NCBI GenBank assembly: GCA_041674805.1
Contig: JBAYVA010000001.1
Span: forward strand, 390,612-454,611
Direction: 5' to 3'
Source of the DNA: Candidatus Magasanikiibacteriota bacterium
Lineage (GTDB): Bacteria; Patescibacteriota; Patescibacteriia; Magasanikbacterales; UBA922
DNA length: 64,000 bases
The translations under genes and the position numbers were made by a program. Each line of letters starts with the position of its first letter. The stretch's first letter is position 1. Under the pieces are notes generated by a model. It did not search any database and had not been told where the DNA came from. It was given only the letters and a program-made list of their open reading frames with translations. Positions 6,610 through 49,585 of this stretch are shown in pieces.

Positions 6610-8571
6610 ATGCAAAAATTACTAAACAAAAATATTATCTACGTCACCCGTGACATCGAACGTGCCACTGGTTTTGACTTGTCTAATCCTAACTATTATA
6701 TTATCTCAAATAGTAGCACATTTGCCAAGCAGATAGCCAAAGACAAAAACAACATTTTGCTAATTGAAGCTGAAAAACAAATAGATACTTGGGAACTTTT
6801 GGAAAAATCTGAAAGCAAAAATTTTATAAACAAAATTATTGATCCCCAAATATTGGTTTTCAAACCAACTACACAAATAGAAAAAATTTGTGCTGAAAAT
6901 AATTGGAAACTATTAAACCCTAGTGCTACTTTGGCAAACAAAGTAGAACAAAAAATTTCTAGTGTAAATTGGTTAGATGAAGACAGTAAATATTTTCCTG
7001 ATGCCAAAATAAATACTTGTGAAAATATTGAATTCAAAAATGAAAAGTTTATTTTACAATATAACCAATCTCACACTGGCAGTGGCACAATGCTGATTGA
7101 ATCAAAAAAACAATTAGATGAAATAAAAAATAAATTTCCTAAACGTGATTGCAAAACCAGCAGATTTGTTGAAGGTATTTTGCTTACCAACAACAATGTT
7201 GTCACAGACAAAGAAACAATGCTTGGTAATATAAATTATCAAATCACAGGACTTGAACCTTTTACCAAAAACAAATTTGCCACGATTGGCAATGATTGGG
7301 GTCTAGCACACAAATTATTAAATGAAAATTTGTTAAAACAATACCAAGAAATTGTAGAAGCCATTGGCAAAAGATTGAGAACAGAAAATTGGCGTGGACT
7401 TTTTGGAGTAGATATTATTTGGGAAACAAAAACCAACAAATTATATTTGATAGAAATCAATGCTCGCCAACCAGCTAGTACAACTTTTGAATCACAATTG
7501 CAAATGCAAAATAAAAAATCAGAAAATGACATCACGACATTTGAAGCTCATATACTAGCCTTAATCGGTGAAAGTTTGAAAAATAAAAAATTGATTGCAA
7601 TTACTGATGGTGCCCAAATAATTTTACGCAAATCACAAGAAAATATTGATACTGAAAATATAAAATCAAAATTGGAAAAAGAAAATTTCAATGTTATCAA
7701 ATACGACAATGACAAAGAAAATTCAGACTTACTTAGAATCCAAAGTAATTCTTCAATTATGAAAGAACACGAAAAATTTAACGAAAACGGCACAAAAATT
7801 GTAAGAGGAATGAAGAATGAGGAAAGAGGAATGGTTTCGAAAATGATTGAACATTATTTAAATCTAAAAGTTGGAAATACGACAGTAACCTGCCCTTACT
7901 TCAATAATCGAAGATCACAAATCCGTGGTGCTCTCGCTGTCCTCATCGGCAAAGGTAGTCCTGAAAGTATTGAAGAAGAACTACAAATAATTTCTCTCAA
8001 AGAAAAAATTGACTTGAACAACTTGCCAGCTGAAAAAATAAAAGAATTTTTGGTAAATAATAATCTTGGGGTTGACTGCTCTGGTTTCGTTTATCACATT
8101 CTAGATGCTTTAGTGCAAGATAAAAAAAATAAAAAACTAAAACAAATTATTCACTTTCCTCTCGCCAAAAGTGTGGTAAGAAAAATGATTGCCAAATTAC
8201 GTCCAGCTGAAAATTGTGGTGTCACGACTCTGGCTCACGAAATTAATAGTAAAAAAATAAATTTGAAAGAAGTGGAAGCCAATGATTTCATTATTTTTCT
8301 TGGCAGTGGACCAAAACAAGATTACAATCATATCATGTTTGTCGAAAGTGTCACTAACAAAACTATAAACTATATTCATGCGTACAAGTGGCCAAGCGAT
8401 GGACAATACAACCATGGTGTCAGACGTGGCCAAATTGAAATCATTGACGAAAACAAAAATATTCTCGAACAAAAGTGGCTTGAACAAGAAAAAACAGCTG
8501 AAAACAATTGGACTTGGTTGCAAGCCAAAAGTGCGAATGAAATATTTGTAGGAAGACTGAAAAACATTTAA
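6610..8571 (+). CDS. ATP-grasp ligase fused to a C-terminal NlpC/P60 (CHAP-like) cysteine peptidase/amidase domain
   Basis: 653 aa. N-terminal ~300 aa: ATP-grasp hallmarks (QSHTGSGTMLIES..., RGLFGVDIIWETKTNKLYLIEINARQPAS with the E-x-N catalytic loop). C-terminal ~170 aa: LGVDCSGFVYHIL ... NHIMFVESV ... YIHAY = Cys-His-His(polar) order of NlpC/P60 papain-like peptidases. Confidence 0.6.
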   Translation: MQKLLNKNIIYVTRDIERATGFDLSNPNYYIISNSSTFAKQIAKDKNNILLIEAEKQIDTWELLEKSESKNFINKIIDPQILVFKPTTQIEKICAENNWKLLNPSATLANKVEQKISSVNWLDEDSKYFPDAKINTCENIEFKNEKFILQYNQSHTGSGTMLIESKKQLDEIKNKFPKRDCKTSRFVEGILLTNNNVVTDKETMLGNINYQITGLEPFTKNKFATIGNDWGLAHKLLNENLLKQYQEIVEAIGKRLRTENWRGLFGVDIIWETKTNKLYLIEINARQPASTTFESQLQMQNKKSENDITTFEAHILALIGESLKNKKLIAITDGAQIILRKSQENIDTENIKSKLEKENFNVIKYDNDKENSDLLRIQSNSSIMKEHEKFNENGTKIVRGMKNEERGMVSKMIEHYLNLKVGNTTVTCPYFNNRRSQIRGALAVLIGKGSPESIEEELQIISLKEKIDLNNLPAEKIKEFLVNNNLGVDCSGFVYHILDALVQDKKNKKLKQIIHFPLAKSVVRKMIAKLRPAENCGVTTLAHEINSKKINLKEVEANDFIIFLGSGPKQDYNHIMFVESVTNKTINYIHAYKWPSDGQYNHGVRRGQIEIIDENKNILEQKWLEQEKTAENNWTWLQAKSANEIFVGRLKNI

Positions 8572-8599: not shown

Positions 8600-11500
8600 T
8601 TGGTATTATACACACAATATTTAATGCAATCTCTTATGCTAGAAATACCACGTTATTCTCCTTTTGACACTCCCAAAAGTAATGATGAGCTATATATAGA
8701 AATAGAAAATATTCTAAATAATCTAGAAGCAACTCTGGCTATTTTTGAATTGGAACAAGACAAAACCAAAGCCAGACAAGTAGGAATTTTAATTTACGAA
8801 CTAAAAAATCAACAAACTTTAATCAATGCCGAAAATCACAAAAAAGTTGGAAAATTGACTAAGCGAGAAAAAATAGAAAATTTACTTTCACAAGCCAGAG
8901 AGATTTTGCAAGGCAATGAATCATCCCTGTCAAGATTTGATCTAGAAAGAGAAAGTGAAATATCGCACATTCCCCTACCACCCGAAGAACTAGAAGCTAA
9001 ATATTTTAGCAAAGAAGATATTGCCGTTTCAAATGCTCTACTTGCTTTCAACATCACTGAACTTTTTTCAGAAGAAGAATTTGAAACACGAATTATTATT
9101 GATTCGAAACAAACTGGCAAAAATGACAATCACAAAATTCAAGAAGCGGTAGAACTAGTCACAGATTTTTTGATTGATAATCAGACCCTTAATTATTTTT
9201 GTGAAAATGCTGAATTTGCTACCACTCAAACAGCAATCAACATGCCACCAGATTTACTTTGGATAAAAGAAAAGAATCCCGCAGTTTGGCAAGCTATCAA
9301 TACTTTAGTCAAAAGTAAAAAAGGTCCAGAATTTTTGAGACTACTCGCTGGTCAACCGACCCACAATACAGCAGTAGAAGAAACTGATCAATATGATCTC
9401 ATGGCAAAAGAGTCTCTAGATGCTTCTCCCAATATTTTGAGTCTAGCCATAAATATATCAAGACAAAGATTGAAAAGTAGTGCAAGACAAGATTTGAGTG
9501 AAGCTGAAAAAAATGTTTTGGTGAATCTTTATGGTGCAGATTTTCTAAAAGACGCTGAAGAAGAAAGAGCCCGAGATATTATTTTTACACAATTACTTGC
9601 TCAGATTTTGAATGAAGATAAAAATGAAAAAAATAATGAGTCAATAATTCAACTTATTGATATGTTAGAATGGAGAGATATACAAAAAATGTTAAAAAAT
9701 AATGATTTGAAAAATTTTGAAAGTATTCTAAAACGTATAGCAGAATACCTACCAAATATGACAGACGAACAAGTGAAAATGGTGTTAGAAAAAATGAATA
9801 CTATCACAAAAGAAGCATTAGCTGAACCTGATAAAATACAAAAAAGAAAAGATGACGCACAAAAAAGAAAGGAAAAATTAGAACAAGACCTAGAAGAAGC
9901 ACAAAAAAATGGTGATAAAAAAATTCTAATGTTTTTAACATTAGGATTCTTTGGTTCAAGAGAGAGACGAATACCAGCAACTACAGAAAAAATTGAAGAT
10001 GTAGGAATAAAATTTTTAGAAGAAAGAAAAAATTATCAAACATCTCTAAAATTGTTATTCCTTCTATTAAAGCACAACGGGAATATTGCCAAAGAATTAA
10101 CAAAAAAAGAAGATTGGGAAAAAAGAAACAAAGAATTCGCAGATTTTTGTATCCAAATATTATATCTTTACTCTAAATTACAAAAATATCCTTCATATCG
10201 TGAAGATACCAAAGATGGTAATATAAACAATTTTGATGGTTTTGTAACAAGTTATATAAAAGTAACTACTGAATCTAAATTACCTACAGATAAAGAATTA
10301 AATTTAAATGGAGCTTCACTTGTTGGTGCAGATTTCAGAAAAGCAGACTTATCCAAAATAAATTTGGAAGGTGCTGATGTTACAAATGCTAATTTTGAAG
10401 GTGCAGATTTTAGCAAGATGACTAACAAACAAATAGAAGGAGCAAAGTTTAATAGAGAAGATGATAATATTCCTAAGTGGATCAAATATGGTTTAGATGA
10501 AGAAGGAAAGTTTTCAAAACAAAAACTACAAGAAACTATTAGAGAGAAATCTAAAACAGAAACTATAGACTTACAAGATGCTAAACTGATGGGACTAGAT
10601 TTATCAAATTTAAATTTATCAAATGCTAATTTTAGAAACTCAAATTTAAGTAGAGTAATATTTACAAATACAATTTTGATGGGTGCTGACTTTAGAGGTG
10701 CTCATATAGAAAGTTTACAATTAGCAAACACAAATCTAGAAGGTGCCAAATTTGATAAAGAAACCATTAACCCATTTAAAAAAACAAAACTAGCCAACGA
10801 ATCTAACTATAGACCAGAAAGTGTACCGAAATGGATCCAGCAGGCATTAGATACAGAAGGAAAATTTTCAAAAAAAATATTAGCTGATAATATCAAAAAA
10901 GATAAAAAGGGAGAAATAAAATTAAACAATGCAGATCTATCAGGATTATCATTGAATGGCGTAGATTTTTCTGGAAGAGAAATCACTGGTACAAAATTTA
11001 TCGGTACAAATCTAGAAGAATCCAAATGGAATAATTGTATATTAACTAATGTTGATTTTAGTGATGCAAACTTATACGAGGCTGATTTCAGAAGCACAAG
11101 CTTCAAAAATGTTAATCTTGAAGGTGCAAGATTTGAAACAATAAAAATAAAAGATTCAAATAATATTCCACCTTGGATACGATATGGTTTGGATAATCCA
11201 GGACGTTCAGGAAAATATTCCAAAAAAGACTTAATAGAATATATAAAAAGACATAGCACTCTAAATCTGAGAAATGCTGACCTGCCAGGGATTGATTTAA
11301 GTAAATTTGAATTAAATGGTGCATTATTCAGCGGTGCAAATTTAGAAGGAGCAATTTTTACTAATTGTTTATTGAAAAAAACAGAATTTGCATCTGCACA
11401 ATTAGAAAATGCTAGCTTCAGAGGTTCAATTCTAGAAGAATCCGACTTTGCCAATGCAAATTTACGTGGAGCAAATTTTAGTGGTGCTGACTTAAAAGAT

Positions 11501-11659
11501 GTAAAAAACTTAGATGGAGCCTATACCCCCGTACGCGTTGGTATTCAAAGAGAAACTGAATATTTTAATTCAAATTTAGTTGGTGCAAACTTCTCAAATG
11601 CAAAAAATATACCACCACACATCCAAGAACGATTAGACGAAAACGGTATATACCACTAA
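8600..11659 (+). CDS. large modular pentapeptide-repeat protein (1019 aa)
   Basis: C-terminal ~480 aa are dense pentapeptide repeats (ASLVGADFRKADLSKINLEGADVTNANFEGADFSKM...). They are organised in three super-modules that each begin with IP(K/P)WI(K/Q/R)YGLD..GKFSKK.L....I. N-terminal ~560 aa are helical with no recognised domain. Confidence 0.75.
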   Translation: MVLYTQYLMQSLMLEIPRYSPFDTPKSNDELYIEIENILNNLEATLAIFELEQDKTKARQVGILIYELKNQQTLINAENHKKVGKLTKREKIENLLSQAREILQGNESSLSRFDLERESEISHIPLPPEELEAKYFSKEDIAVSNALLAFNITELFSEEEFETRIIIDSKQTGKNDNHKIQEAVELVTDFLIDNQTLNYFCENAEFATTQTAINMPPDLLWIKEKNPAVWQAINTLVKSKKGPEFLRLLAGQPTHNTAVEETDQYDLMAKESLDASPNILSLAINISRQRLKSSARQDLSEAEKNVLVNLYGADFLKDAEEERARDIIFTQLLAQILNEDKNEKNNESIIQLIDMLEWRDIQKMLKNNDLKNFESILKRIAEYLPNMTDEQVKMVLEKMNTITKEALAEPDKIQKRKDDAQKRKEKLEQDLEEAQKNGDKKILMFLTLGFFGSRERRIPATTEKIEDVGIKFLEERKNYQTSLKLLFLLLKHNGNIAKELTKKEDWEKRNKEFADFCIQILYLYSKLQKYPSYREDTKDGNINNFDGFVTSYIKVTTESKLPTDKELNLNGASLVGADFRKADLSKINLEGADVTNANFEGADFSKMTNKQIEGAKFNREDDNIPKWIKYGLDEEGKFSKQKLQETIREKSKTETIDLQDAKLMGLDLSNLNLSNANFRNSNLSRVIFTNTILMGADFRGAHIESLQLANTNLEGAKFDKETINPFKKTKLANESNYRPESVPKWIQQALDTEGKFSKKILADNIKKDKKGEIKLNNADLSGLSLNGVDFSGREITGTKFIGTNLEESKWNNCILTNVDFSDANLYEADFRSTSFKNVNLEGARFETIKIKDSNNIPPWIRYGLDNPGRSGKYSKKDLIEYIKRHSTLNLRNADLPGIDLSKFELNGALFSGANLEGAIFTNCLLKKTEFASAQLENASFRGSILEESDFANANLRGANFSGADLKDVKNLDGAYTPVRVGIQRETEYFNSNLVGANFSNAKNIPPHIQERLDENGIYH

Positions 11660-13305: not shown

Positions 13306-13971
13306 ATGAACAAGTATTTAAAATGGAACGAACAAACAATCCAAGATTTTTCTCCCGAAAACATCAATAGTCTTTACAACCAAGGCTATGTTTTTACTAG
13401 AGTGGAAAAAGGTATGATGAACCAAACCAGAAGTCTAAGAATTGATTTGTCTAAATTTGAATTGTCATCTGAAAATAGAAGAGTCTTGCGCAAAGCAGAA
13501 AATTTAAAACTTGAAATAAAAGATTTACCGACGTCAGATTATCATTGGACTCTTGGCAAATTGGCCAAAGATTTTTATGATACCAAATTTGGCGATGGAG
13601 TATTTTCAGCCAACAAAGTAAAAGAGATCCTAACAACACAACAAAATTTCAACAAACTTTTTGTTTACAAAGTTGCAGAAAAAAAAATTGGTTACACTAT
13701 TTGTTTTGAATCTGCAGAAATGTTGCATTATAGCTATCCATTCTATAACCTAGAACCTAACACCCAAAACCCAATACCTAGTCTTGGCATGTCGATGATG
13801 CTGAGTGCAATTGTCTACGCACAAGAAAATAACAAAAAATATATTTATCTTGGTTCAGCTCAACGTCCGACAGATATTTATAAATTGCAATTCAAAGGAT
13901 TAGAGTGGTTTGATGGTGAGAAATGGAGTGAAGATTTGGAGGAGTTGAAAAGTATTTTGAAAGCAAAATAA
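13306..13971 (+). CDS. Ate1/Bpt-family (arginyl/leucyl-tRNA--protein transferase-like, GNAT fold) homologue lacking the CxxC zinc-binding cysteines
   Basis: NQGYVFTRVEKGMMNQTRSLRIDLSKFELSSENRRVLRK matches the ATE_N signature region (…GWRRSGKY.YKP.MNQTCCPQYTIR…F.PSKS.+KVLKK) with Cys replaced. 221 aa, about Bpt size. FemX-like is an alternative given its position between mraY and the Mur ligase. Confidence 0.45.
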   Translation: MNKYLKWNEQTIQDFSPENINSLYNQGYVFTRVEKGMMNQTRSLRIDLSKFELSSENRRVLRKAENLKLEIKDLPTSDYHWTLGKLAKDFYDTKFGDGVFSANKVKEILTTQQNFNKLFVYKVAEKKIGYTICFESAEMLHYSYPFYNLEPNTQNPIPSLGMSMMLSAIVYAQENNKKYIYLGSAQRPTDIYKLQFKGLEWFDGEKWSEDLEELKSILKAK

Positions 13972-13995
13972 AAAAAATAATCTAACAAAATAATT

Positions 13996-14742
13996 ATGAA
14001 TGAAGAAAACACAACTACTAATAAAACATTCAGAATATATAATAGCGTAATAATATTTGATATTCTTTGGTTGTCAACAACATTAATAATTACACTGTTT
14101 TTATTTTCCTCAACATTTAATATAACAAGTATTTTTTTAGGTATTTTTTCTTTAGCCTTTACTATATTCATGATTATAAAAATAATAAAAGATGCCTCAT
14201 ATAAAATAATTTTAGATAATAATATATTAAAAGAATACAATTATTCTGCACCTACTTTAAGAAGTATAGAAATAAAAGATATAACACATATTTCTCAAGT
14301 AGAGTACTCTGTATTAGAAGAAATAAAACAAGATAAAAACAATTCACCTTTTATACAAATAATCAATCAAATATTATCAAAAATTTTTACATTATTACTT
14401 AAAAAGTCTACAGAGCATACAGACATGCCTATGTTTGTACTTCAAGGTAATTTCAAAATCTCAAGATTTCCATCAGTTCCTGTTAATATAAAATTAATAC
14501 AAAGACTCATTGAATTGAATCCATCTATTATAGTAGACAAAAAATTAAGAAGGTGGTTACCAAAAAAACTTCAAAAGCAATTAAACATGCACCCTACAAA
14601 ACTAGAATATACATTTGAAATTATTGGAAAAATACTAATATCCATACTAATTGTCTTAATAATATTATGGGCAATTCCACTAACTTTTTTTTTACTAGAT
14701 AAAATTGGAATTTTAAATACTATACAAAATTTGATAAAATAG
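13996..14742 (+). CDS. hypothetical integral membrane protein (very AT-rich)
   Basis: 248 aa, N- and C-terminal TM helices; no recognised family. Confidence 0.4.
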   Translation: MNEENTTTNKTFRIYNSVIIFDILWLSTTLIITLFLFSSTFNITSIFLGIFSLAFTIFMIIKIIKDASYKIILDNNILKEYNYSAPTLRSIEIKDITHISQVEYSVLEEIKQDKNNSPFIQIINQILSKIFTLLLKKSTEHTDMPMFVLQGNFKISRFPSVPVNIKLIQRLIELNPSIIVDKKLRRWLPKKLQKQLNMHPTKLEYTFEIIGKILISILIVLIILWAIPLTFFLLDKIGILNTIQNLIK

Positions 14743-16877: not shown

Positions 16878-16914
16878 CGTAAATCCGCGTTATTTTCCGC
16901 GTAAGTCAGCTTCC

Positions 16915-17079
16915 TACTTACCTTCATCCACAATTTCAGCCAAAACATTTTCACCTTCCATATCAGTAATCATCAAAGTTATACCACACATATCACACTC
17001 TACAATGTTTTCTACTTCCAAATTTGGATAATTTACCAAATCAACTTCATTTTTACATTCTGGACAAACTAATTTCATA
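16915..17079 (-). CDS. LysW-like small zinc-ribbon protein (54 aa), not in the ORF track (below the 60-aa cutoff)
   Basis: Manual translation: MKLVCPECKNEVDLVNYPNLEVENIVECDMCGITLMITDMEGENVLAEIVDEGK. It has two CxxC pairs and an acidic C-terminal tail, and aligns with LysW/ArgW (MxxCPECGAEIELENPELGELVECxECGAELEV...L.LEPAPE.EEDWGE). It has its own terminator and replaces the implausible plus-strand track ORF 16846-17031. Confidence 0.5.
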
Positions 17080-17215: not shown

Positions 17216-18115
17216 ATGAAAACCCCCCAACCAACATTCACCGAGCTAAACAAAACACTCGGTATCGACGTCTACCTCAAACGTGAAGACGAACACAAGT
17301 ATTCTTCACACAAAGGTCGTTCTATTCCACTCATGGTCAAAAAGTATAACAAAGAAGAAGACATCACAAACTTTGTAATTTCTTCTTCCGGCAATGCAGC
17401 CATCGCCGCTATACACACTATCCAAGCTCACAACAAAAATAATGATAAAAATTTAACATTAAAAATTTTTGTTGGCAAAAATATTGATAAACAAAAATTG
17501 AAAGTTTTGCAAGCAATTATCGAAGACAAAAATATTTCTCTTGAGCAAGTAGAAAGACCAAAACAAACAGCTTTTGCTCTCGACAAAGAAAATAAAGCCA
17601 AAAATTTACGACAATCCACCGATGATAATGCCCTTACAGGTTACTATGAACTAGCCGAGGAATTAAACAATATCCCAAACTTGCAAGCAATACTTGTACC
17701 AACATCTTCTGGCACTACAGCCCAAGGACTTGGTATGGCTTTTGACACAATACCCGCTTCCAAATTTGGTGGTCAACAACATCCCCAAATTCATATTGTA
17801 CAAACAACTAGTTGTCACCCGATTGCTGAAGAATTTGATAAAAAGTTTGAAAACACAGAGACATCCCTAGCAAGTGCTATCGTCGACAACATTGCTCACC
17901 GCAAAGAAAAAGTCATAGAACAAATAAAAAAATCCAGCGGATCTGGCTGGATAGTGACTGACGAAGATTTGAAAAATGTAGTGAATATGCTAGAAGAAAA
18001 CTGCAAAATAAAAATTTCTTATAATTCTGCTTTGTCAGTTGCCGGGCTTATCAAAGCAATGAATAACGGCTGGAAATTTGAGGGAGCGGTGGTGTGTTTG
18101 ATTACAGGAATGTAA
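17216..18115 (+). CDS. PLP-dependent enzyme, tryptophan-synthase-beta (fold type II) superfamily; ACC deaminase / D-cysteine desulfhydrase-like
   Basis: LKREDEHKYSSHKGRS (PLP-lysine region, cf. FGGNKTRKL), ISSSGNAAIAAI, glycine-rich PTSSGTTAQGLGMAF. Confidence 0.5.
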   Translation: MKTPQPTFTELNKTLGIDVYLKREDEHKYSSHKGRSIPLMVKKYNKEEDITNFVISSSGNAAIAAIHTIQAHNKNNDKNLTLKIFVGKNIDKQKLKVLQAIIEDKNISLEQVERPKQTAFALDKENKAKNLRQSTDDNALTGYYELAEELNNIPNLQAILVPTSSGTTAQGLGMAFDTIPASKFGGQQHPQIHIVQTTSCHPIAEEFDKKFENTETSLASAIVDNIAHRKEKVIEQIKKSSGSGWIVTDEDLKNVVNMLEENCKIKISYNSALSVAGLIKAMNNGWKFEGAVVCLITGM

Positions 18116-18174: not shown

Positions 18175-18870
18175 TCATTTCCTCAAAATCGTCACCACAT
18201 TATTCCCCTTTTTTACATCACTCACTTTCCCTTTCTTAGAATAATAATTTTCTTCTACTTCAAAACCAGCTTCGCTGCAAATCTTATCTAAATACTCAGG
18301 AGTAAAACCATAATAATATCTCTCACCCAATACTTCACCTTGAGGATTCATCCAAGGTACAACGAATTCACCTTCACTCTCCTGCCACTTACCTTTTTCC
18401 ACAGTCTTTTGAGCTGAATCTGAATAAAGATTCCAATTAGTCAGAAGTACTCTACCAGCAGGCTTTAGAATTCTGAACATTTCAGACAAAGCCTGATGTC
18501 TAGTCTCTTCATCTGGCAAATGATGCAAAGTTGCAACACAAAAAACTAAATCAAAACTAGCATCATCAAATGGTAATTTGGTCATTTCTGCCTGAATATA
18601 TTTATTGTTCGGAAAGTCCTTCTTAGCCTCAGCTAATTGTCCCTCACTTTGGTCCAAACCTATGTAATCTATAGAGTCTTGAAATTTTGCGAAAATCTGA
18701 TATAATCTGCCAGTACCACAACCAAGATCTAAGATCTTCAAGTTTGGCTTGATATACTTTTCAAAAGGTCTCAAATCATCCCAAATATATTGTCTAGTAC
18801 TAGCAAAAAGAGGTGCAATAATATCATAAACTTCCCTATTTTGCTCAATTATTTTTTTTATTCGTGTCAT
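18175..18870 (-). CDS. Trm9/ALKBH8-type tRNA (mcm5U34) methyltransferase-like class I SAM methyltransferase
   Basis: EVYDIIAPLFASTRQYIW, ILDLGCGTGRL (motif I), ATLHHLPDEETRHQALSEMFRILKPAGRVLLTNWN, GEFVVPWM and RYYYGF align with Trm9 regions (VYNEIAPHFSQTRYKPW / DVGCGNGKY / AVVHHWSTRERR...GGQALIYCWA / QDVFVPWV / RYYHLY). Confidence 0.6.
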   Translation of the reverse strand: MTRIKKIIEQNREVYDIIAPLFASTRQYIWDDLRPFEKYIKPNLKILDLGCGTGRLYQIFAKFQDSIDYIGLDQSEGQLAEAKKDFPNNKYIQAEMTKLPFDDASFDLVFCVATLHHLPDEETRHQALSEMFRILKPAGRVLLTNWNLYSDSAQKTVEKGKWQESEGEFVVPWMNPQGEVLGERYYYGFTPEYLDKICSEAGFEVEENYYSKKGKVSDVKKGNNVVTILRK

Positions 18871-18880
18871 ATTTTTTAAA

Positions 18881-20566
18881 ATGGAAAAAACTTTAGAAGA
18901 AATTTTATTAGAAATAATATCTTACCATCCCAAAACTAAGGATGATTTTAATGATGCTCGCCGTCGAATTTGTGGTAAATTGAAAACAGTCCAACCTTCC
19001 AACATGAAGCTTTTTACAGCTTACCAGAATTTGTTAAAAAAGAAAAGTATTACCATTGACAAAAACTTAGAATTACTTCTACGCAAAGCCGATATTCGCT
19101 CAATGTCTGGTGTTGCTATTATCACTTCTCTCATCAAACCTTACACTTGCCCTGGACAATGTATCTACTGCCCGACTGAAGTAAAAATGCCAAAAAGTTA
19201 CATTGCTACTGAACCAGCGGCTGCCCGTGCGCTTGCTCTAGCTTTTAGTCCTTACAGACAAATGCAAATGCGCCTAGACATGCTCGAAAAAACTGGTCAT
19301 CCAACTGACAAAATAGAATATATTTTGAAAGGCGGAACTTGGAATGCTTATCCTCTTCGTTACCAATATTGGTTTATTTTAGAATCTTTCAAAGCTTGCA
19401 ATGATCTGACAAGGAAAACACCAACCAAAGCTACGTTGGAAAAAGACTGGAAAGAAAAAACTCTGGAAGATTTACAAAATGCTTTGAAAATTGAACAAGA
19501 GTACAATGACAAAAAAGCTAAACACAAAATCATTGGCCTGACTCTCGAAACTCGTCCCGACGCTATTTCCCCAAAAACAATTTGGCATATGCGAGAACAA
19601 GGTTGTACTCGTATTGAACTTGGTCTCCAAGCTCCAGATGACAAAATTCTTGAACTAGTAAAACGTGGCCACACTGTCGAACAATTTCGCCAAGCTATTT
19701 TACTTTTGCGCCAAGCTGGTTTCAAAGTAGATTTGCATTTCATGCCAGATTTGCCAGGTACGACCGCCAAACACGATGTGGAGATGTACGCCAGTTTGTT
19801 TACTGACGAAGGTCTAAAACCTGACATGGTGAAAATTTATCCGTGTACTGTTATCAAAAGTGCCGAGCTATATGGCTGGTTTGAATCTGGTAAATACAAA
19901 CCTTATGCTAGCCAAGATTTGTTCAACGCTATACTTGAAATGAAAAAGTTAACTCCTTATTACTGCCGTATTTCTCGTCTTATTCGTGACATTCCTAGCA
20001 ACGAAATCGAAGGTGGAAATGCTATTACCAATCTTCGTGAAGCTCTAGAAAAAGAATTACACAAGCAAGGTGACTATTGCAAATGTTTACGTTGTCGCGA
20101 AGTCGGACATTCCGAAAAAATTCACAAAATAAAAGCAGACAAATTAATACCCCAACTTTTTGTCGAAGAATTTCAAACTCGTGGTGGACGAGAATTTTTC
20201 TTGAGTTTGGAAGATGAAGAACGTCGTATAGTCTTTGCTTTCTTGCGTCTTCGTCTACCAGAATATAATGACCAAATAAAAAAATCTGAAATACTTGAAA
20301 AATACCTTGGCCTTGGTGATTTGAAAAAATTAGCTTACGTCCGCGAACTTCATACTTACGGACAACTCGTCAACGTCGGTGACAAAAACAAGTCAGCCTC
20401 ACAACACAAAGGAATGGGAACAAAACTAGTCAAAGAAGCTGACAAAATTGCTAGAGAAAATGGTTACACAAAAATTGCTGTAATTTCTGGTGTTGGTGTA
20501 CGATCTTATTATCGAAAATTTGGCTATAAAAAAATTGGCACATATATGGCCAAAAATCTAAAATAG
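18881..20566 (+). CDS. Elp3-type radical-SAM + GNAT tRNA uridine(34) carboxymethyl/acetyl-transferase homologue
   Basis: 561 aa; radical-SAM cluster CPGQCIYCP, and a C-terminal GNAT domain HKGMGTKLVKEADKIARENGYTKIAVISGVGVRSYYRKFGYKKIGTYMAK that closely matches the Elp3 C-terminus (QHQG.G..L.EEAERIA....KIAVISGVGTR.YYRK.GY...GPYM.K). Confidence 0.8.
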   Translation: MEKTLEEILLEIISYHPKTKDDFNDARRRICGKLKTVQPSNMKLFTAYQNLLKKKSITIDKNLELLLRKADIRSMSGVAIITSLIKPYTCPGQCIYCPTEVKMPKSYIATEPAAARALALAFSPYRQMQMRLDMLEKTGHPTDKIEYILKGGTWNAYPLRYQYWFILESFKACNDLTRKTPTKATLEKDWKEKTLEDLQNALKIEQEYNDKKAKHKIIGLTLETRPDAISPKTIWHMREQGCTRIELGLQAPDDKILELVKRGHTVEQFRQAILLLRQAGFKVDLHFMPDLPGTTAKHDVEMYASLFTDEGLKPDMVKIYPCTVIKSAELYGWFESGKYKPYASQDLFNAILEMKKLTPYYCRISRLIRDIPSNEIEGGNAITNLREALEKELHKQGDYCKCLRCREVGHSEKIHKIKADKLIPQLFVEEFQTRGGREFFLSLEDEERRIVFAFLRLRLPEYNDQIKKSEILEKYLGLGDLKKLAYVRELHTYGQLVNVGDKNKSASQHKGMGTKLVKEADKIARENGYTKIAVISGVGVRSYYRKFGYKKIGTYMAKNLK

Positions 20567-23182: not shown

Positions 23183-23629
23183 ATGATTTATACAACAAAA
23201 ACAACCGAAGAAATGATCGCTCTTGGTGAAAAAATAGCTTCCAAACTAAATGGTGGTGATATTATTTTACTCCAAGGTGAACTGGGAGCTGGTAAAACTA
23301 CGATGTCAAAAGGTATTGCCAAAGGACTTAGCATCACTGACGAAATTGTCAGTCCAACTTTTACACTGATGAATGTTTATAATGTAGTCGAAAGTCAAAA
23401 GTCTAATGTCAAAAGTCTAGTACACATTGATACTTACAGACTAGAAAGTGAAGAAAATTTAATTGAGATAGGCGTTGAAGATTATTTAGGAGAACCTGAT
23501 GTAGTTACCATTATTGAATGGCCAGAAAAAATAAAAGACTTGATTAGTAATAAAAAAACAATAGAAATTTCTATTGTTAAGCAAGATGATAATAGTCGAG
23601 AGATTACGATTGTTCCTGAGATTTTTTAA
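23183..23629 (+). CDS. tsaE: tRNA t6A37 biosynthesis protein TsaE (YjeE)
   Basis: P-loop IILLQGELGAGKTTMSKGIAKGL; VSPTFTLMNVY; about 150 aa. Confidence 0.8.
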   Translation: MIYTTKTTEEMIALGEKIASKLNGGDIILLQGELGAGKTTMSKGIAKGLSITDEIVSPTFTLMNVYNVVESQKSNVKSLVHIDTYRLESEENLIEIGVEDYLGEPDVVTIIEWPEKIKDLISNKKTIEISIVKQDDNSREITIVPEIF

Positions 23630-24176
23630 CTTCCCAAAGTTTCTTATCTCTTAGAGAATAAGAACAACCACAATAATCTTGTCTATAAATATTCATATCA
23701 CAAACAAGCTGATTACTGCGTTCTTGTCTCCCCTTTTTCTTCCAATCTTCAACAAAATATTCTACTCCATATTTTTCTTGTAAAGACAAACCAATCGGAC
23801 TAATCACGTCCGATTTTTTGTTGCGACCAAAAGTGAGACTACTAGACCAGATATCAAAATTATTTTCCTTAGCATATTTTGCAGCTACATCCATTCGCAT
23901 ACGAAAGCAAAGAGGACAACGCTTTCCTGACTCTGGTTCATTTTCCAGTCCTTTGGTAATATCAAACCAACGCTCTGCATCATAATCAGCATCTATCATC
24001 TCGATTCCCCACTCGGTACAAACTTTTATTACTTGTTCTTTACGTTTCAAATATTCTGTTTGTGGGTGAATATTTGGATTATAAAAAAAGACAGTCACAG
24101 CAAACTGTGATTTCAATTCTTCAATAACAGCGATGCTACATGGAGCACAACAAGTATGTAACAAGAATTTTCGCAT
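23604..24176 (-). CDS. queH: epoxyqueuosine reductase QueH (DUF208)
   Basis: LLHTCCAPCS signature plus downstream CPLC and C..C cysteines. Confidence 0.8.
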   Translation of the reverse strand: MRKFLLHTCCAPCSIAVIEELKSQFAVTVFFYNPNIHPQTEYLKRKEQVIKVCTEWGIEMIDADYDAERWFDITKGLENEPESGKRCPLCFRMRMDVAAKYAKENNFDIWSSSLTFGRNKKSDVISPIGLSLQEKYGVEYFVEDWKKKGRQERSNQLVCDMNIYRQDYCGCSYSLRDKKLWEVKKSQEQS

Positions 24177-42787: not shown

Positions 42788-43936
42788 TTATAAACTTAAA
42801 TTATTAACCACTTCCACAATTTGTTTCTTAATTTCCTCAAATTCTTTTTTATCACTCAATCCTAATCTTACTTTAGTATAACCAAAAAACAATTTGTGAA
42901 GTAGTTTAGTTTTTTCTTTTGCAAGTCTTGCTAATTCACCCAAAACATCAATATCACCATATTCAGATAAAATATTTTCTATTGTCTTACTATGATCAAC
43001 GCCATTTTTGTTTGCCATAGCTGAGGCTGATGACATAATGAAATCAAACAAATCACGTGCCTTCTGTTCCAAAAGTGGAACATCTTTTTTATATTGTGTT
43101 TCGGGATCACAAATGTGTACTTGCTTTTCTTTATCAACAATAATATTTGGTAAAATCAATTCACCCCAAGTAACAGGTGGATCAGCTTCGTGCATTCTCT
43201 TTACTTCTCTTGTTATTTTTTTCAAAATATCAAGTAAACCATTTTCATCAATATCTTTAGCATATTCACATTCACCAAAATCTGCAATTTCTTCCCTATT
43301 AGCAAAAAGATCATAAGCATTAACATTTGGTATAAATGGTAAAACCACAACATTTGGTTCAACAATATCCAATACAGGTATTCTACTACGTTCTTCAAAA
43401 ATATCTTTCCAATCTCTTGATTTACATTTTGCCATTCTCGTACCTGTCATTCTTTTCATGAAACTATCTAAACCACGATGAATAAAAGAAGTACTATAAT
43501 TATTTATAACAAAATATTTACTACCATCAGCTAATTCTACTATCTTAGTACGTGTACTAAAATTGGCAACTTTTGAATCGTACTCTGTAGCTGTTTTATT
43601 ACCTCTTATAAGGGCAGGAGCAACAAAACCAACTTCCAACTTGAAAGCAGAAACAACTTCTTCTAATTCCAGTCTCTGTTCTGGAGGTAAAATTATTTTA
43701 CCATTTTTTATAGTATAACCTTGTCTGTTATTTTGATCAGCATTAGCTTTTTCTATTTCATCTTTTGTATTTTTTATTTGTTGTTGTCTTCTTTCAGAAG
43801 CTTCTGGTGTTTCAATTCTATGTTCAACTTCTGGTGCAACAATTTCATCACCAGTAGTTTCTAGTTTTGATCTTTCTGTATCAGGCATTTTAAATTCTTG
43901 ACCTTCTGGTCCTTTCCCTTTTTTTATTTCAGCCAT
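42788..43936 (-). CDS. hypothetical protein with possible protein-kinase-like (PKL) fold
   Basis: Acidic low-complexity N-terminus; ...VTWGELILPNIIVDKEKQVHICDPE loosely resembles the HGD...N / DFx loops of small atypical kinases. Confidence 0.3.
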   Translation of the reverse strand: MAEIKKGKGPEGQEFKMPDTERSKLETTGDEIVAPEVEHRIETPEASERRQQQIKNTKDEIEKANADQNNRQGYTIKNGKIILPPEQRLELEEVVSAFKLEVGFVAPALIRGNKTATEYDSKVANFSTRTKIVELADGSKYFVINNYSTSFIHRGLDSFMKRMTGTRMAKCKSRDWKDIFEERSRIPVLDIVEPNVVVLPFIPNVNAYDLFANREEIADFGECEYAKDIDENGLLDILKKITREVKRMHEADPPVTWGELILPNIIVDKEKQVHICDPETQYKKDVPLLEQKARDLFDFIMSSASAMANKNGVDHSKTIENILSEYGDIDVLGELARLAKEKTKLLHKLFFGYTKVRLGLSDKKEFEEIKKQIVEVVNNLSL

Positions 43937-48928: not shown

Positions 48929-49555
48929 TTATATTCCGTGTCTAAAAAGACTGACCAAAGCAAAACCAACAGACAAACCAAGGATCATATTAGCCAAATT
49001 AAATAAGTAAGGATTTTCGAAAACAAGAGCGATCAAAATCAAACATATTGACAATACCTGCAAAAACATTTTTATTTTACCCCACAAATTTGCCATTCTC
49101 ACAGTTTTGAACTTTACTCTATACAAATAAGCCATACTAATAAAAATAATTTCAATACCCAACACAGCAATACCAAGCCAAAAATTATTCAAATATTTGA
49201 AAACCAAAAGTAAAACCATAGAACCAATGAGCAACTTGTCAGCCAAAGGATCTATCAAAATTCCAAATTTTGTAATTTTGTTTTGTGTGCGAGCCAAAGA
49301 ACCATCTAGAGCATCCGTAAATGCTACTAGTACAAAAGCTACCACACCAATATTATAAAATCCAAACAAAATAAGCAAAAAAACAAAAGGTGTCGCTAAA
49401 ATACGAAAAATACTTATTCTATTTGGAGTCACAGACTTAGGCAAAAAACGCAAAATATAATTCTCCAAAAAATGATCATGAGGATGAATTTCTTCTGCTG
49501 GCAAATAATCAAACAAGTCAACGTTCCTCTCTTTGAAATCCTTGATAAAAGACAT
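48929..49555 (-). CDS. CDP-alcohol phosphatidyltransferase family protein
   Basis: DALDGSLARTQNKITKFGILIDPLADKLL matches D-G-x2-A-R-x8-G-x3-D-x3-D. Confidence 0.8.
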   Translation of the reverse strand: MSFIKDFKERNVDLFDYLPAEEIHPHDHFLENYILRFLPKSVTPNRISIFRILATPFVFLLILFGFYNIGVVAFVLVAFTDALDGSLARTQNKITKFGILIDPLADKLLIGSMVLLLVFKYLNNFWLGIAVLGIEIIFISMAYLYRVKFKTVRMANLWGKIKMFLQVLSICLILIALVFENPYLFNLANMILGLSVGFALVSLFRHGI

Positions 49556-49585
49556 AAATTTGATATAATAGTGAAATTAAAGTCT

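What the first reader, a model, noticed from the sequence alone, without database searches (positions are those of the whole stretch)
18175..20566. Divergent Elp3 + Trm9-like pair: a eukaryote/archaea-type mcm5U34 wobble-modification pathway in a bacterium
The Elp3 homologue (radical SAM CPGQCIYCP plus a GNAT tail nearly identical to eukaryotic Elp3) is transcribed divergently from a methyltransferase. The methyltransferase matches Trm9/ALKBH8 block by block (VYDIIAPLFASTRQYIW; LDLGCGTGR; LHHLPDEETR...LLTNWN; FVVPWM; RYYYGF). Elp3 makes cm5U and Trm9 methylates it. Bacteria normally use the MnmE/MnmG route. The pairing suggests a complete transplanted pathway.
Basis: partly seen in the sequence, partly recalled or inferred. 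Interest (0 to 1): 0.6.

Follow-up and report, generated by a model that had tools for sequence, protein, structure and literature searches.

The report
Bacterial Elp3–Trm9 tRNA wobble-modification gene pair
A tiny uncultured bacterium (Candidatus Magasanikbacteria) carries, back to back, the two enzymes that eukaryotes and some archaea use to decorate the wobble uridine of tRNA, and the same gene pair turns out to be widespread in this bacterial radiation and in Dehalococcoides, although reviews say bacteria have no Trm9.

Summary
Window 18881-20566(+) encodes a full-length Elp3 (TIGR01211, 521 bits against a cutoff of 350). Window 18175-18870(-) encodes a 231-aa class I methyltransferase. 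Their start codons are 10 bp apart. Pfam, NCBIfam and Foldseek cannot tell the methyltransferase from generic UbiE-type enzymes, but four other tests place it in the Trm9 family. First, all eight residues whose mutation impairs yeast Trm9 are present. Second, a family profile ranks Yarrowia Trm9 first in the PDB. Third, a profile of the C-terminal substrate-binding half alone finds only Trm9 (E 7e-6; next hit 0.63). Fourth, authentic Trm9 ranks signature-bearing proteins above all generic ones. Among 38 species genomes with a full-length relative, 33 have Elp3 within 4 kb, mostly divergent and abutting, across many CPR lineages, DPANN and Crenarchaeota archaea, Anaerolineales and Fermentibacteria. 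Dehalococcoides mccartyi, source of the only studied bacterial Elp3, has the same pair. The most likely function is Elp3 making cm5U34 and the Trm9-like enzyme methylating it to mcm5U34. Not shown: the product itself, absence of MnmE/MnmG, need for Trm112, or "transplantation". I found no paper reporting this. New member of a known kind; moderate interest.

The parts
18881..20566 (+). Elp3: radical SAM plus GNAT (KAT) tRNA uridine-34 carboxymethyl synthase, 561 aa, full-length form with an N-terminal extension
   Evidence: TIGR01211 521.6 bits against cutoff 350. Pfam Radical_SAM, Radical_SAM_C and Acetyltransf_1. PDB MinElp3 1e-108, DmcElp3 5e-100, mouse and yeast Elp3 aligned from residue 4.
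19148..19171 (+). Elp3 [4Fe-4S] cluster motif C90-x3-C94-x2-C97 (CPGQCIYC)
   Evidence: These three cysteines are at least 97% conserved in 43 pair-bearing loci. The 38 bacterial copies whose motif was captured read CPGxC[IVL][YF]C, and DmcElp3 has CPGKCIYC. MinElp3 has CX4CX2C.
20402..20419 (+). Elp3 acetyl-CoA binding motif Q508-H-K-G-M-G513 of the GNAT domain
   Evidence: Q508, H509, G511 and G513 are at least 97% conserved. The motif aligns with the same motif in MinElp3 and DmcElp3.
18871..18880 (.). 10-bp spacer between the divergent start codons; each promoter must lie inside the other gene
   Evidence: Sequence read. Spacers of 2-11 bp or overlaps recur in homologous loci.
18175..18870 (-). 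Trm9-family SAM-dependent methyltransferase, 231 aa, predicted tRNA cm5U34 carboxyl O-methyltransferase
   Evidence: Best PDB match is 5cm2_Z, Yarrowia Trm9, over the full length. It carries 8 of 8 Trm9 functional residues: R26, D73, H117, W146, W173, R184, Y186, N224. AF2 model pLDDT 93.3.
18706..18732 (-). SAM-binding motif I, L47-DLGCGTG-R55
   Evidence: D48, G50, G52, G54 and R55 are invariant in the 33-sequence family alignment A1.
18178..18441 (-). Trm9-specific C-terminal substrate-binding half (residues 144-231: WN, VPW, RYY, N224)
   Evidence: A profile of this segment alone (A2) has a single significant PDB hit, Trm9 5cm2_Z at E 7.3e-6; the next hit is at 0.63.
18679..18706 (+). Promoter-like site (TTGAAA-16-TATAAT with TG) inside the methyltransferase gene, about 175 bp upstream of the Elp3 ATG; a lead only
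   Evidence: 11 of 12 matches, but the region's total (8 sites) equals the shuffled expectation (7.1 +/- 2.9).

Best explanation
This is a two-gene tRNA wobble-uridine modification module in a Candidatus Magasanikbacteria (CPR/Patescibacteria) genome. Step 1 is inferred from strong homology; the activity has been shown only for archaeal and eukaryotic Elp3. Stand-alone Elp3 uses its [4Fe-4S]/SAM radical domain and its acetyl-CoA-binding GNAT domain to attach a carboxymethyl group to C5 of U34, giving cm5U34. Step 2 is inferred from family membership, conserved catalytic residues and conserved gene linkage. The adjacent Trm9-family enzyme transfers a methyl group from SAM to that carboxylate, giving mcm5U34, or mcm5s2U34 if a thiolase acts too. 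The head-to-head arrangement, with start codons 10 bp apart, forces overlapping promoter regions, and the pair is inherited as a unit. The same module occurs across many CPR lineages, some archaea, Anaerolineales, Fermentibacteria and Dehalococcoides.
For: Elp3 identity: TIGR01211 scores 521 bits against a cutoff of 350; solved Elp3 structures match at 1e-108 to 3e-84; the radical-SAM cysteines and the acetyl-CoA motif are at least 97% conserved in 43 loci. Methyltransferase identity: the A1 family profile ranks Yarrowia Trm9 (5cm2_Z) first in the PDB at 1.4e-25 and 93 bits over positions 22-220, while other hits cover only the Rossmann core. The C-terminal-half profile hits Trm9 alone (7.3e-6 against 0.63). 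Authentic YlTrm9, searched against 84 methyltransferases, puts signature-bearing proteins at ranks 1-48; the best generic protein ties the weakest of them at 28 bits and the other generic ones score 21 bits or less. The window protein scores 52.6 bits, E 2.4e-16. The eight residues whose mutation abolishes or strongly lowers ScTrm9 activity (R29, D72, H116, W145, W168, R241, Y243, N271; PMC4678810) map to R26, D73, H117, W146, W173, R184, Y186 and N224, all present here and invariant in the family. I validated the chain numbering explicitly. Linkage: 4 of 4 Magasanikbacteria homologues at 37-53% identity have Elp3 divergent and abutting while the other flank changes. 33 of 38 GTDB species loci with a full-length relative have Elp3 within 4 kb, 30 of them divergent. 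Signature against Elp3 adjacency gives [[42,1],[9,31]], Fisher p = 1.8e-13. Methyltransferase and Elp3 are the only families that recur across lineages. Their distance matrices correlate (Mantel r = 0.83, 0 of 2,000 permutations). Precedent: HvoTrm9-Trm112 makes mcm5U in an archaeon (PMC6144793), and Elp3 and Trm9 genes cluster in S. solfataricus (PMC2584109).
Against: There is no biochemical or nucleoside evidence for cm5U or mcm5U in any bacterium (PMC7663514). Foldseek does not single out Trm9: it ranks 5th among many generic class I methyltransferases, though with the highest target-normalised TM-score, 0.80. Pfam and NCBIfam have no Trm9-specific model, so library scans return only generic methyltransferase families. 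My neighbour-joining tree was saturated and gave no clean split. Eukaryotic and archaeal Trm9 need Trm112, and no Trm112-like ORF lies in the window or next to the pair in 40 loci. Only one authentic Trm9 sequence (Yarrowia) was available as a comparator. The Mantel correlation would also arise for any two vertically inherited genes.
Confidence: 0.75

Rival explanations
1. The methyltransferase works with Elp3 but gives a different outcome. It might methylate another Elp3-derived side chain or another tRNA position, or the bacterial end product might not be mcm5U (for example an ncm5-type or still unknown derivative).
For: In H. volcanii trm9 and trm112 mutants cm5U did not accumulate and an unidentified isobaric nucleoside was seen, so the pathway has branches outside eukaryotes (PMC6144793). 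Y186 (ScTrm9 Y243) changes to V, I, L, C, H, F or T in 19 of the 43 Elp3-linked loci, and W173 to F or Y in six, which hints at altered substrate contacts in part of the family.
Against: In the window protein and throughout Magasanikbacteria and Dehalococcoides all eight Trm9 functional residues are intact, including the two arginines and the histidine proposed to position the cm5U carboxylate.
Confidence: 0.15
2. The methyltransferase is an ordinary small-molecule or UbiE/MenG-type enzyme that merely sits beside Elp3 through conserved synteny, as JGI annotates several homologues.
For: Pfam gives only generic families plus Ubie_methyltran at 2e-13. JGI names several homologues 'ubiquinone/menaquinone biosynthesis C-methylase UbiE'. 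Foldseek E-values for generic methyltransferases equal that of Trm9.
Against: All UbiE/MenG NCBIfam models score 40-65 bits against cutoffs of 158-420. The non-core half matches only Trm9. Linkage to Elp3 survives across phyla while every other neighbour changes. Of the 31 scanned loci lacking the signature, only one (L054) has an Elp3 within 4 kb.
Confidence: 0.04
3. The pair is a recent horizontal 'transplant' from archaea into this bacterium, rather than a long-standing bacterial module.
For: The window Elp3 scores slightly higher against archaeal MinElp3 (360 bits) than against DmcElp3 (339 bits) over the same region. Pacearchaeota carries the same divergent, abutting arrangement (L055) and Nanoarchaeota the same divergent orientation with a 1.45-kb gap (L067). 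CPR and DPANN share habitats (general knowledge).
Against: The pair is present in Magasanik-, Komeili-, Portnoy-, Kuenen- and Lloydbacteria, Paceibacterota, Gracilibacteria, WWE3 and Chloroflexota. All 38 bacterial Elp3 copies whose motif was captured share CX3CX2C with DmcElp3, unlike MinElp3. GC content across the pair (about 0.35-0.37) is only slightly above the window's 0.26-0.36. An ancient interdomain transfer cannot be excluded.
Confidence: 0.06

Closest known systems
Eukaryotic Elongator (Elp3) plus Trm9-Trm112 (ALKBH8-TRMT112) mcm5U34 pathway
   Same: The same two catalytic enzyme families in the same predicted order, cm5U then mcm5U. Elp3 has the full-length architecture, aligning with mouse and yeast Elp3 from residue 4. 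The methyltransferase keeps all eight residues shown by mutagenesis to matter in ScTrm9.
   Different: No Elp1, 2, 4, 5 or 6 is expected, since archaeal and bacterial genomes carry only Elp3 (PMC6367351). No Trm112 gene lies nearby. The Fe-S motif is CX3CX2C. The methyltransferase is 231 aa and, like Yarrowia Trm9, has only about 10 residues between W173 and R184, where ScTrm9 has about 70. The two genes are physically paired.
Archaeal Elp3 plus Trm9-Trm112 (Haloferax volcanii HVO_1032; S. solfataricus Elp3/Trm9 cluster)
   Same: A stand-alone Elp3 with a Trm9 orthologue. mcm5U has been demonstrated in H. volcanii (PMC6144793). Gene clustering of Elp3 and Trm9 is reported in S. solfataricus (PMC2584109), and I see it in Crenarchaeota, Pacearchaeota and Nanoarchaeota loci (L045, L055, L067).
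   Different: The host is a bacterium. Archaeal Trm9 was thought to be restricted to Sulfolobales and Halobacteriales and to need Trm112 (PMC5372719). Here the family spans many CPR lineages, and dependence on Trm112 is unknown.
Dehalococcoides mccartyi Elp3 (DmcElp3; PDB 5l7j), the only studied bacterial Elp3
   Same: A bacterial stand-alone Elp3 with the same CPGxCIYCPT Fe-S motif. It also has a divergent, abutting methyltransferase with 8 of 8 Trm9 residues, 43 bp away (L090).
   Different: DmcElp3 is a short form (459 aa) lacking the N-terminal extension, and shows weak tRNA binding and activity (PMC7663514). The window Elp3 (561 aa) has the extension. The Dmc methyltransferase has N instead of D in motif I. 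None of the Elp3 papers I could read mentions a Trm9 partner for DmcElp3.
Bacterial MnmE/MnmG (cmnm5U/nm5U) route
   Same: The same target: C5 of the wobble U34 in tRNAs that read purine-ending codons.
   Different: Unrelated enzymes and chemistry (GTPase/FAD/folate against radical SAM/acetyl-CoA). tblastn with E. coli MnmE and MnmG finds nothing in the window or in about 660 kb of related loci, which leaves most of the genome untested.

Membership tests
Elp3 (TIGR01211, tRNA U34 carboxymethyl synthase) | Whole-protein score above the curated family cutoff | tested here: met
   521.6 bits against a cutoff of 350, covering model positions 3-522 of 522.
Elp3 (TIGR01211, tRNA U34 carboxymethyl synthase) | Radical SAM domain with three cluster-binding cysteines | tested here: met
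   C90, C94 and C97 (CPGQCIYC) are at least 97% conserved in 43 loci. Pfam Radical_SAM and Radical_SAM_C both match.
Elp3 (TIGR01211, tRNA U34 carboxymethyl synthase) | C-terminal GNAT/KAT domain with an acetyl-CoA motif (Q/RxxGxG) | tested here: met
   QHKGMG at residues 508-513 is conserved. Acetyltransf_1 scores 22.4 bits against a cutoff of 20.7. The domain aligns with the MinElp3 and DmcElp3 KAT domains.
Elp3 (TIGR01211, tRNA U34 carboxymethyl synthase) | Basic N-terminal tRNA-binding extension (present in archaeal and eukaryotic Elp3, absent in DmcElp3) | tested here: inconclusive
   About 70 extra N-terminal residues align with mouse Elp3 from residue 4 to residue 18, but Pfam ELP3_N scores 20.3 bits, below its cutoff of 27.
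Elp3 (TIGR01211, tRNA U34 carboxymethyl synthase) | Catalyses cm5U34 formation on tRNA | not testable with these tools
   This needs anaerobic reconstitution or nucleoside mass spectrometry.
Trm9 / ALKBH8-type tRNA (cm5U34) carboxyl methyltransferase | Class I SAM methyltransferase fold with SAM motifs I and II | tested here: met
   Methyltransf_11 at 2.7e-25. AF2 model with pLDDT 93.3 and a Rossmann topology. D48, G50, G52, G54 and D73 are invariant. This feature is not specific to Trm9.
Trm9 / ALKBH8-type tRNA (cm5U34) carboxyl methyltransferase | The eight residues required for ScTrm9 function (R29, D72, H116, W145, W168, R241, Y243, N271; PMC4678810) | tested here: met
   R26, D73, H117, W146, W173, R184, Y186 and N224 are all present. 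The Yarrowia Trm9 control gives 8 of 8 at the same columns, and the chain numbering was verified.
Trm9 / ALKBH8-type tRNA (cm5U34) carboxyl methyltransferase | Trm9-specific substrate-binding C-terminal half, distinct from other class I methyltransferases | tested here: met
   The profile of residues 144-231 alone has one significant PDB hit, 5cm2_Z Trm9 at E 7.3e-6. The next hits are at 0.63 and 0.83.
Trm9 / ALKBH8-type tRNA (cm5U34) carboxyl methyltransferase | Reciprocal best similarity to authentic Trm9 | tested here: met
   Forward: Trm9 is top of the PDB for both the single sequence and the profile. Reverse: YlTrm9 ranks signature-bearing proteins at positions 1-48; the best generic protein (L085) ties the weakest of them at 28 bits. 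Only one authentic Trm9 was available.
Trm9 / ALKBH8-type tRNA (cm5U34) carboxyl methyltransferase | Groups with Trm9 in a phylogenetic tree | tested here: inconclusive
   The neighbour-joining tree rests on saturated distances. There is no clean bipartition, and YlTrm9 sits in a signature-only clade in 83 of 200 bootstraps. No maximum-likelihood software was available.
Trm9 / ALKBH8-type tRNA (cm5U34) carboxyl methyltransferase | Fold closest to Trm9 | tested here: inconclusive
Trm9 / ALKBH8-type tRNA (cm5U34) carboxyl methyltransferase | Obligate Trm112 activator partner | tested here: inconclusive
   No Trm112-like zinc-knuckle ORF lies in the 64-kb window or beside the pair in 40 loci. The only small zinc-ribbon ORF is LysW-type.
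Trm9 / ALKBH8-type tRNA (cm5U34) carboxyl methyltransferase | Functional association with Elp3 | tested here: met
   33 of 38 full-length relatives have Elp3 within 4 kb. Signature against adjacency gives Fisher p = 1.8e-13. Mantel r = 0.83.
UbiE/MenG quinone C-methyltransferase | Score above the curated equivalog or subfamily cutoffs | tested here: not met
   Best scores are 64.3 bits (cutoff 216) for NF001244 and 61.6 bits (cutoff 158) for TIGR01934, and the matches cover only the N-terminal 145 residues.
MnmE/MnmG bacterial xm5U34 route (as the pathway being replaced) | Absence of mnmE and mnmG from the genome | not testable with these tools
   tblastn with E. coli MnmE and MnmG gives no hit in the window plus 88 loci (725 kb in all). 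The window is only about 6% of a roughly 1-Mb genome, and whole genomes cannot be fetched.

The most novel reading that the evidence does not exclude
mcm5(s2)U34 is a native bacterial tRNA modification. Across the Candidate Phyla Radiation, Dehalococcoidia and some other Chloroflexota it is made by a stand-alone Elp3 and a Trm9 that works without Trm112. In these small genomes the two-gene module takes the place of the canonical MnmE/MnmG route.
Probability: 0.3. Interest if true: 0.7.

Novelty: new member of a known kind. Interest (0 to 1): 0.55.

Why it matters
Reviews by the Elongator and Trm112 groups state three things. Bacterial Elp3 is confined to Dehalococcoides, with no evidence for xcm5U in bacteria (PMC7663514). 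No bacterial homologue of the Trm112-dependent methyltransferases exists. Archaeal Trm9 is limited to Sulfolobales and Halobacteriales (both PMC5372719). The data here point instead to a large family, 1,156 clusters at 50% identity with E <= 1e-30, tightly linked to Elp3 across CPR bacteria, several other bacterial groups and DPANN archaea. If mcm5U is confirmed, the Elongator-type wobble pathway would stop being a eukaryote/archaea hallmark. It would give a compact two-gene system, perhaps without Trm112, for mechanistic and structural work. It would bear on how reduced genomes decode split codon boxes. It would also correct the routine 'UbiE' annotation of these genes. Dehalococcoides mccartyi can be cultivated and has the pair, so the prediction can be tested directly.

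Tried and rejected

2. Tree. The first attempt timed out. The neighbour-joining rerun rests on saturated distances, some of them undefined, and on core-only overlap with the generic methyltransferases. It gave no clean split, so I do not use it.

3. Trm112 candidate. The 54-aa zinc-ribbon ORF conserved two genes away (16914-17078) is LysW-type (PF21344), not Trm112. I rejected it.

4. Domain fusions in the family join the methyltransferase to NUDIX or WecG domains, which are its usual neighbours. They say nothing about Trm112 or Elp3.

5. Promoter scan. The number of sites equals the shuffled expectation, so I keep only one site as a lead.

6. My own error, corrected. I first mapped ScTrm9 D72 to motif I D48. 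Counting along the 5cm2_Z chain shows it is motif II D73. The recomputed tables and statistics are unchanged.

7. MnmE/MnmG. Only the window and the fetched fragments could be searched. There was no way to fetch whole genomes.

8. The exact window methyltransferase is not on record in the contig index, so the source assembly could not be named.

9. Glatt 2016 and Selvadurai 2014 are not held in the library.

10. No tRNA genes or Rfam matches occur in the window, so substrate tRNAs could not be examined.
Full report
OBSERVATION. 18175-18870 on the minus strand encodes 231 aa. 18881-20566 on the plus strand encodes 561 aa. They diverge from a 10-bp spacer, 18871-18880. The window has about 31% G+C with no compositional break at the pair, and it contains no tRNA gene or Rfam match. 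Named relatives of both proteins come from Candidatus Magasanikbacteria, a CPR/Patescibacteria lineage. The exact methyltransferase sequence is not on record in the contig index.

ELP3. The 561-aa protein passes the curated Elp3 model TIGR01211 (521.6 bits, cutoff 350). It has the Radical_SAM, Radical_SAM_C and GNAT domains. It matches solved Elp3 structures from Methanocaldococcus infernus (1e-108), Dehalococcoides mccartyi (5e-100) and mouse and yeast (7e-88 to 3e-84). The eukaryotic alignments start at residue 4, so this is the long form with an N-terminal extension. The three cluster cysteines (C90, C94, C97) and the acetyl-CoA motif (Q508, H509, G511, G513) are at least 97% conserved across 43 pair-bearing loci. 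The 38 bacterial copies whose motif was captured read CX3CX2C (CPGxC[IVL][YF]C). DmcElp3 has the same type, CPGKCIYC. Archaeal MinElp3 has CX4CX2C.

THE METHYLTRANSFERASE: WHAT DID DISCRIMINATE. Four tests did.

(a) By sequence, the best solved relative is Trm9. Unlike every other hit, its alignment runs the full length (residues 23-214). With a 33-sequence family profile (A1), Trm9 is again first, at 1.4e-25 and 92.8 bits over positions 22-220.

(b) A profile built only from residues 144-231 leaves out the shared Rossmann core. It finds one significant protein among 177,635 distinct PDB sequences: Trm9 at E 7.3e-6. The next hits are noise at 0.63 and 0.83.

(c) Létoquart et al. (PMC4678810) showed by mutagenesis that ScTrm9 R29, D72, H116, W145, W168, R241, Y243 and N271 are needed for zymocin sensitivity and for activity. 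I counted along the 5cm2_Z chain to verify the numbering, and in doing so corrected my first assignment of D72 from motif I to motif II. The eight residues map to window R26, D73, H117, W146, W173, R184, Y186 and N224. All eight are present, and all are invariant in the Magasanikbacteria family.

(d) In reverse, the Yarrowia Trm9 sequence searched against 84 methyltransferases from the scanned loci puts signature-bearing proteins at ranks 1-48 (28-74 bits). The window protein scores 52.6 bits (E 2.4e-16). The best generic protein, L085, ties the weakest signature-bearing one at 28 bits, and the other generic ones score 21 bits or less.

CONSERVATION OF THE PAIR. Four Magasanikbacteria homologues at 53, 42, 41 and 37% identity all have an Elp3-type gene divergent and abutting (2-9 bp apart). 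The gene on the methyltransferase's other side changes from a PALP enzyme to a glycosyltransferase.

It returned 80 loci. Of the 38 with a full-length match, 33 have Elp3 within 4 kb, and 30 of those are divergent and usually abutting. One of the five exceptions lies at a contig edge. The record titles name Magasanik-, Komeili-, Portnoy-, Kuenen- and Lloydbacteria, Paceibacterota, Gracilibacteria (there co-directional) and WWE3. They also name Crenarchaeota, Pacearchaeota and Nanoarchaeota, and the non-CPR bacteria Fermentibacteria and Anaerolineales. Some 'Saccharibacteria' and 'Gammaproteobacteria' labels on co-assembled MAGs may not be reliable.

The loci that match only the Rossmann core serve as a built-in negative control. 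Signature (at least 6 of 8 residues) against Elp3 adjacency gives [[42,1],[9,31]], Fisher p = 1.8e-13. At a threshold of 7 of 8, p = 1.7e-8. Clustering all ORFs around the pair shows that only the methyltransferase (41 loci) and Elp3 (39 loci) recur across lineages. Their pairwise distance matrices correlate (Mantel r = 0.83, 0 of 2,000 permutations). This fits inheritance as a unit, although any two vertically inherited genes would correlate too. An exhaustive profile search finds 1,156 clusters at 50% identity with E <= 1e-30, so the family is large.

DEHALOCOCCOIDES. I rebuilt the DmcElp3 sequence from the PDB alignment and located the gene in a complete D. mccartyi genome, CP019867.1. A 224-aa methyltransferase lies divergently 43 bp from it, and a related Dehalococcoidia genome shows the same arrangement. 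Both methyltransferases have 8 of 8 Trm9 residues and score 42-44 bits against Yarrowia Trm9. A third short-form Elp3 locus, L092, has no adjacent methyltransferase. The only biochemically studied bacterial Elp3 therefore has the same partner. The Elp3 papers I could read do not mention this.

MECHANISM. What is shown here: family membership of both proteins, intact catalytic residues, and conserved physical linkage. What is inferred from established biochemistry: archaeal Elp3 makes cm5U34 in vitro (cited in PMC7663514 and PMC13315578), and Trm9-Trm112 methylates cm5U to mcm5U in yeast and in H. volcanii (PMC4678810, PMC6144793). On that basis Elp3 carboxymethylates C5 of U34 and the Trm9-like enzyme esterifies the carboxylate, giving mcm5U34. 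Thiolation may follow.

The 10-bp spacer means that each gene's promoter lies inside the other gene. The best consensus site for Elp3 (18679-18706, 11 of 12 matches) lies within the methyltransferase gene, but the number of sites in the region equals the shuffled expectation, so this is only a lead.

WHAT REMAINS OPEN. (1) No nucleoside evidence exists for any bacterium (PMC7663514). (2) Trm112: no Trm112-like ORF lies in the window or next to the pair. The nearby 54-aa zinc ribbon is LysW-type. The enzyme may work alone, or its partner may be encoded elsewhere. (3) MnmE and MnmG are absent from the window and from about 660 kb of related fragments, but the rest of the genome could not be examined. 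'Replacement' of the canonical route is therefore untested. (4) 'Transplanted': the wide bacterial distribution and the shared bacterial Fe-S motif argue against recent transfer. An ancient exchange with archaea, where Pacearchaeota (L055) shows the same head-to-head, abutting arrangement, cannot be excluded. (5) Y186 and W173 vary in part of the wider family, so the substrate or product may differ in some lineages.

COMPARISON WITH THE LITERATURE AND NOVELTY. The pathway itself is well known in eukaryotes. It has been demonstrated in one archaeon, and Elp3/Trm9 gene clustering was noted in S. solfataricus (PMC2584109). For bacteria, the 2020 Elongator review limits Elp3 to Dehalococcoides and says evidence for xcm5U is lacking. 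The 2017 Trm112 review says no bacterial homologue of the Trm112-dependent methyltransferases can be detected, and restricts archaeal Trm9 to two orders. A 2026 paper says only that 'numerous bacteria' have Elp3. Full-text searches found no paper that links Elp3 with the Candidate Phyla Radiation (0 papers). None usefully links it with Patescibacteria. None among the top-ranked results links Trm9 with Dehalococcoides, Chloroflexi or CPR groups. NCBI annotation already names the Elp3 genes, and two distant family members carry a Trm9-style product name, so the individual calls are not entirely new. I rate the finding as a new member of a known kind.

VERDICT. I put confidence in the Elp3 to Trm9 to mcm5U model at 0.75 and interest at 0.55.

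Noticed in passing
window 16914-17078 (-); also L001 7756-7920 and L003 7657-7821: A 54-aa LysW-type zinc-ribbon protein (PF21344, 29 bits against a cutoff of 27; CPEC...CDMCG, acidic tail ending EIVDEGK). It is conserved beside a PALP-fold enzyme (17216-18115) and a NUDIX gene in Magasanikbacteria. LysW is an amino-group carrier of lysine/arginine biosynthesis, which is unexpected in a CPR genome, and its role here is unexplained. An ATP-grasp protein lies at 6610-8571.
   Followed up: partly
L090 5283-5957 (-) and 6001-7380 (+) (Dehalococcoides mccartyi CP019867.1); L091 likewise: The reference bacterial Elp3 (DmcElp3) has a divergent, abutting methyltransferase with 8 of 8 Trm9 residues, 224 aa long and 43 bp away. 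Its motif I reads LLNAGCG (N instead of D). The Elp3 papers I could read do not mention it.
   Followed up: yes
window 23604-24176 (-); L001 108-647; L090 3140-3688; L091 2767-3327: QueH (epoxyqueuosine reductase, another enzyme acting on tRNA position 34) lies 2-5 kb from the Elp3/Trm9 pair in Magasanikbacteria and also in Dehalococcoidia, next to a RuvB/RarA-type AAA+ gene in both. This may be coincidence or a loose grouping of wobble-base genes.
   Followed up: no
window 19148-19171 and Elp3 genes of L001-L079: The 38 bacterial Elp3 proteins in pair-bearing loci whose motif was captured use a canonical CX3CX2C radical-SAM motif (CPGxC[IVL][YF]C), as does DmcElp3. Archaeal MinElp3 has CX4CX2C. 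This could serve as a marker for bacterial-type Elp3.
   Followed up: partly
P0243, P0264 (about 380 aa); P0337, P0361 (492-542 aa): Some family members are fused to a C-terminal NUDIX domain or a WecG/TagA glycosyltransferase domain. These are the same families that usually sit next to the gene. The fusions are probably neighbour fusions or gene-call read-throughs.
   Followed up: partly
window 8600-11659 (+): A 1,019-aa protein whose C-terminal part is a long pentapeptide-repeat array (PF00805, 1.4e-51, seven stretches). Its N-terminal 790 residues match no family.
   Followed up: no
window 59623-62379 (-): A ClpB/ClpC-like AAA+ chaperone (AAA_2, ClpB_D2-small) with an unusual N-terminal cysteine-rich segment (CDTCHGDGYIHFHPCQNCKR) that resembles a DnaJ-type zinc finger.
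   Followed up: no
window 49472-51715 (+), 42788-43936 (-), 13306-14742 (+): Several sizeable ORFs (747, 382, 221 and 248 aa) have no Pfam match at E <= 1e-3.
   Followed up: no
L011, L036, L042, L043, L049, L051: Methyltransferases with the Trm9 signature (7-8 of 8 residues) and no Elp3 within the available flank. The record labels include Omnitrophota, Euryarchaeota and Peribacteria. In these genomes Elp3 may lie elsewhere, or the enzyme may act without it.
   Followed up: no
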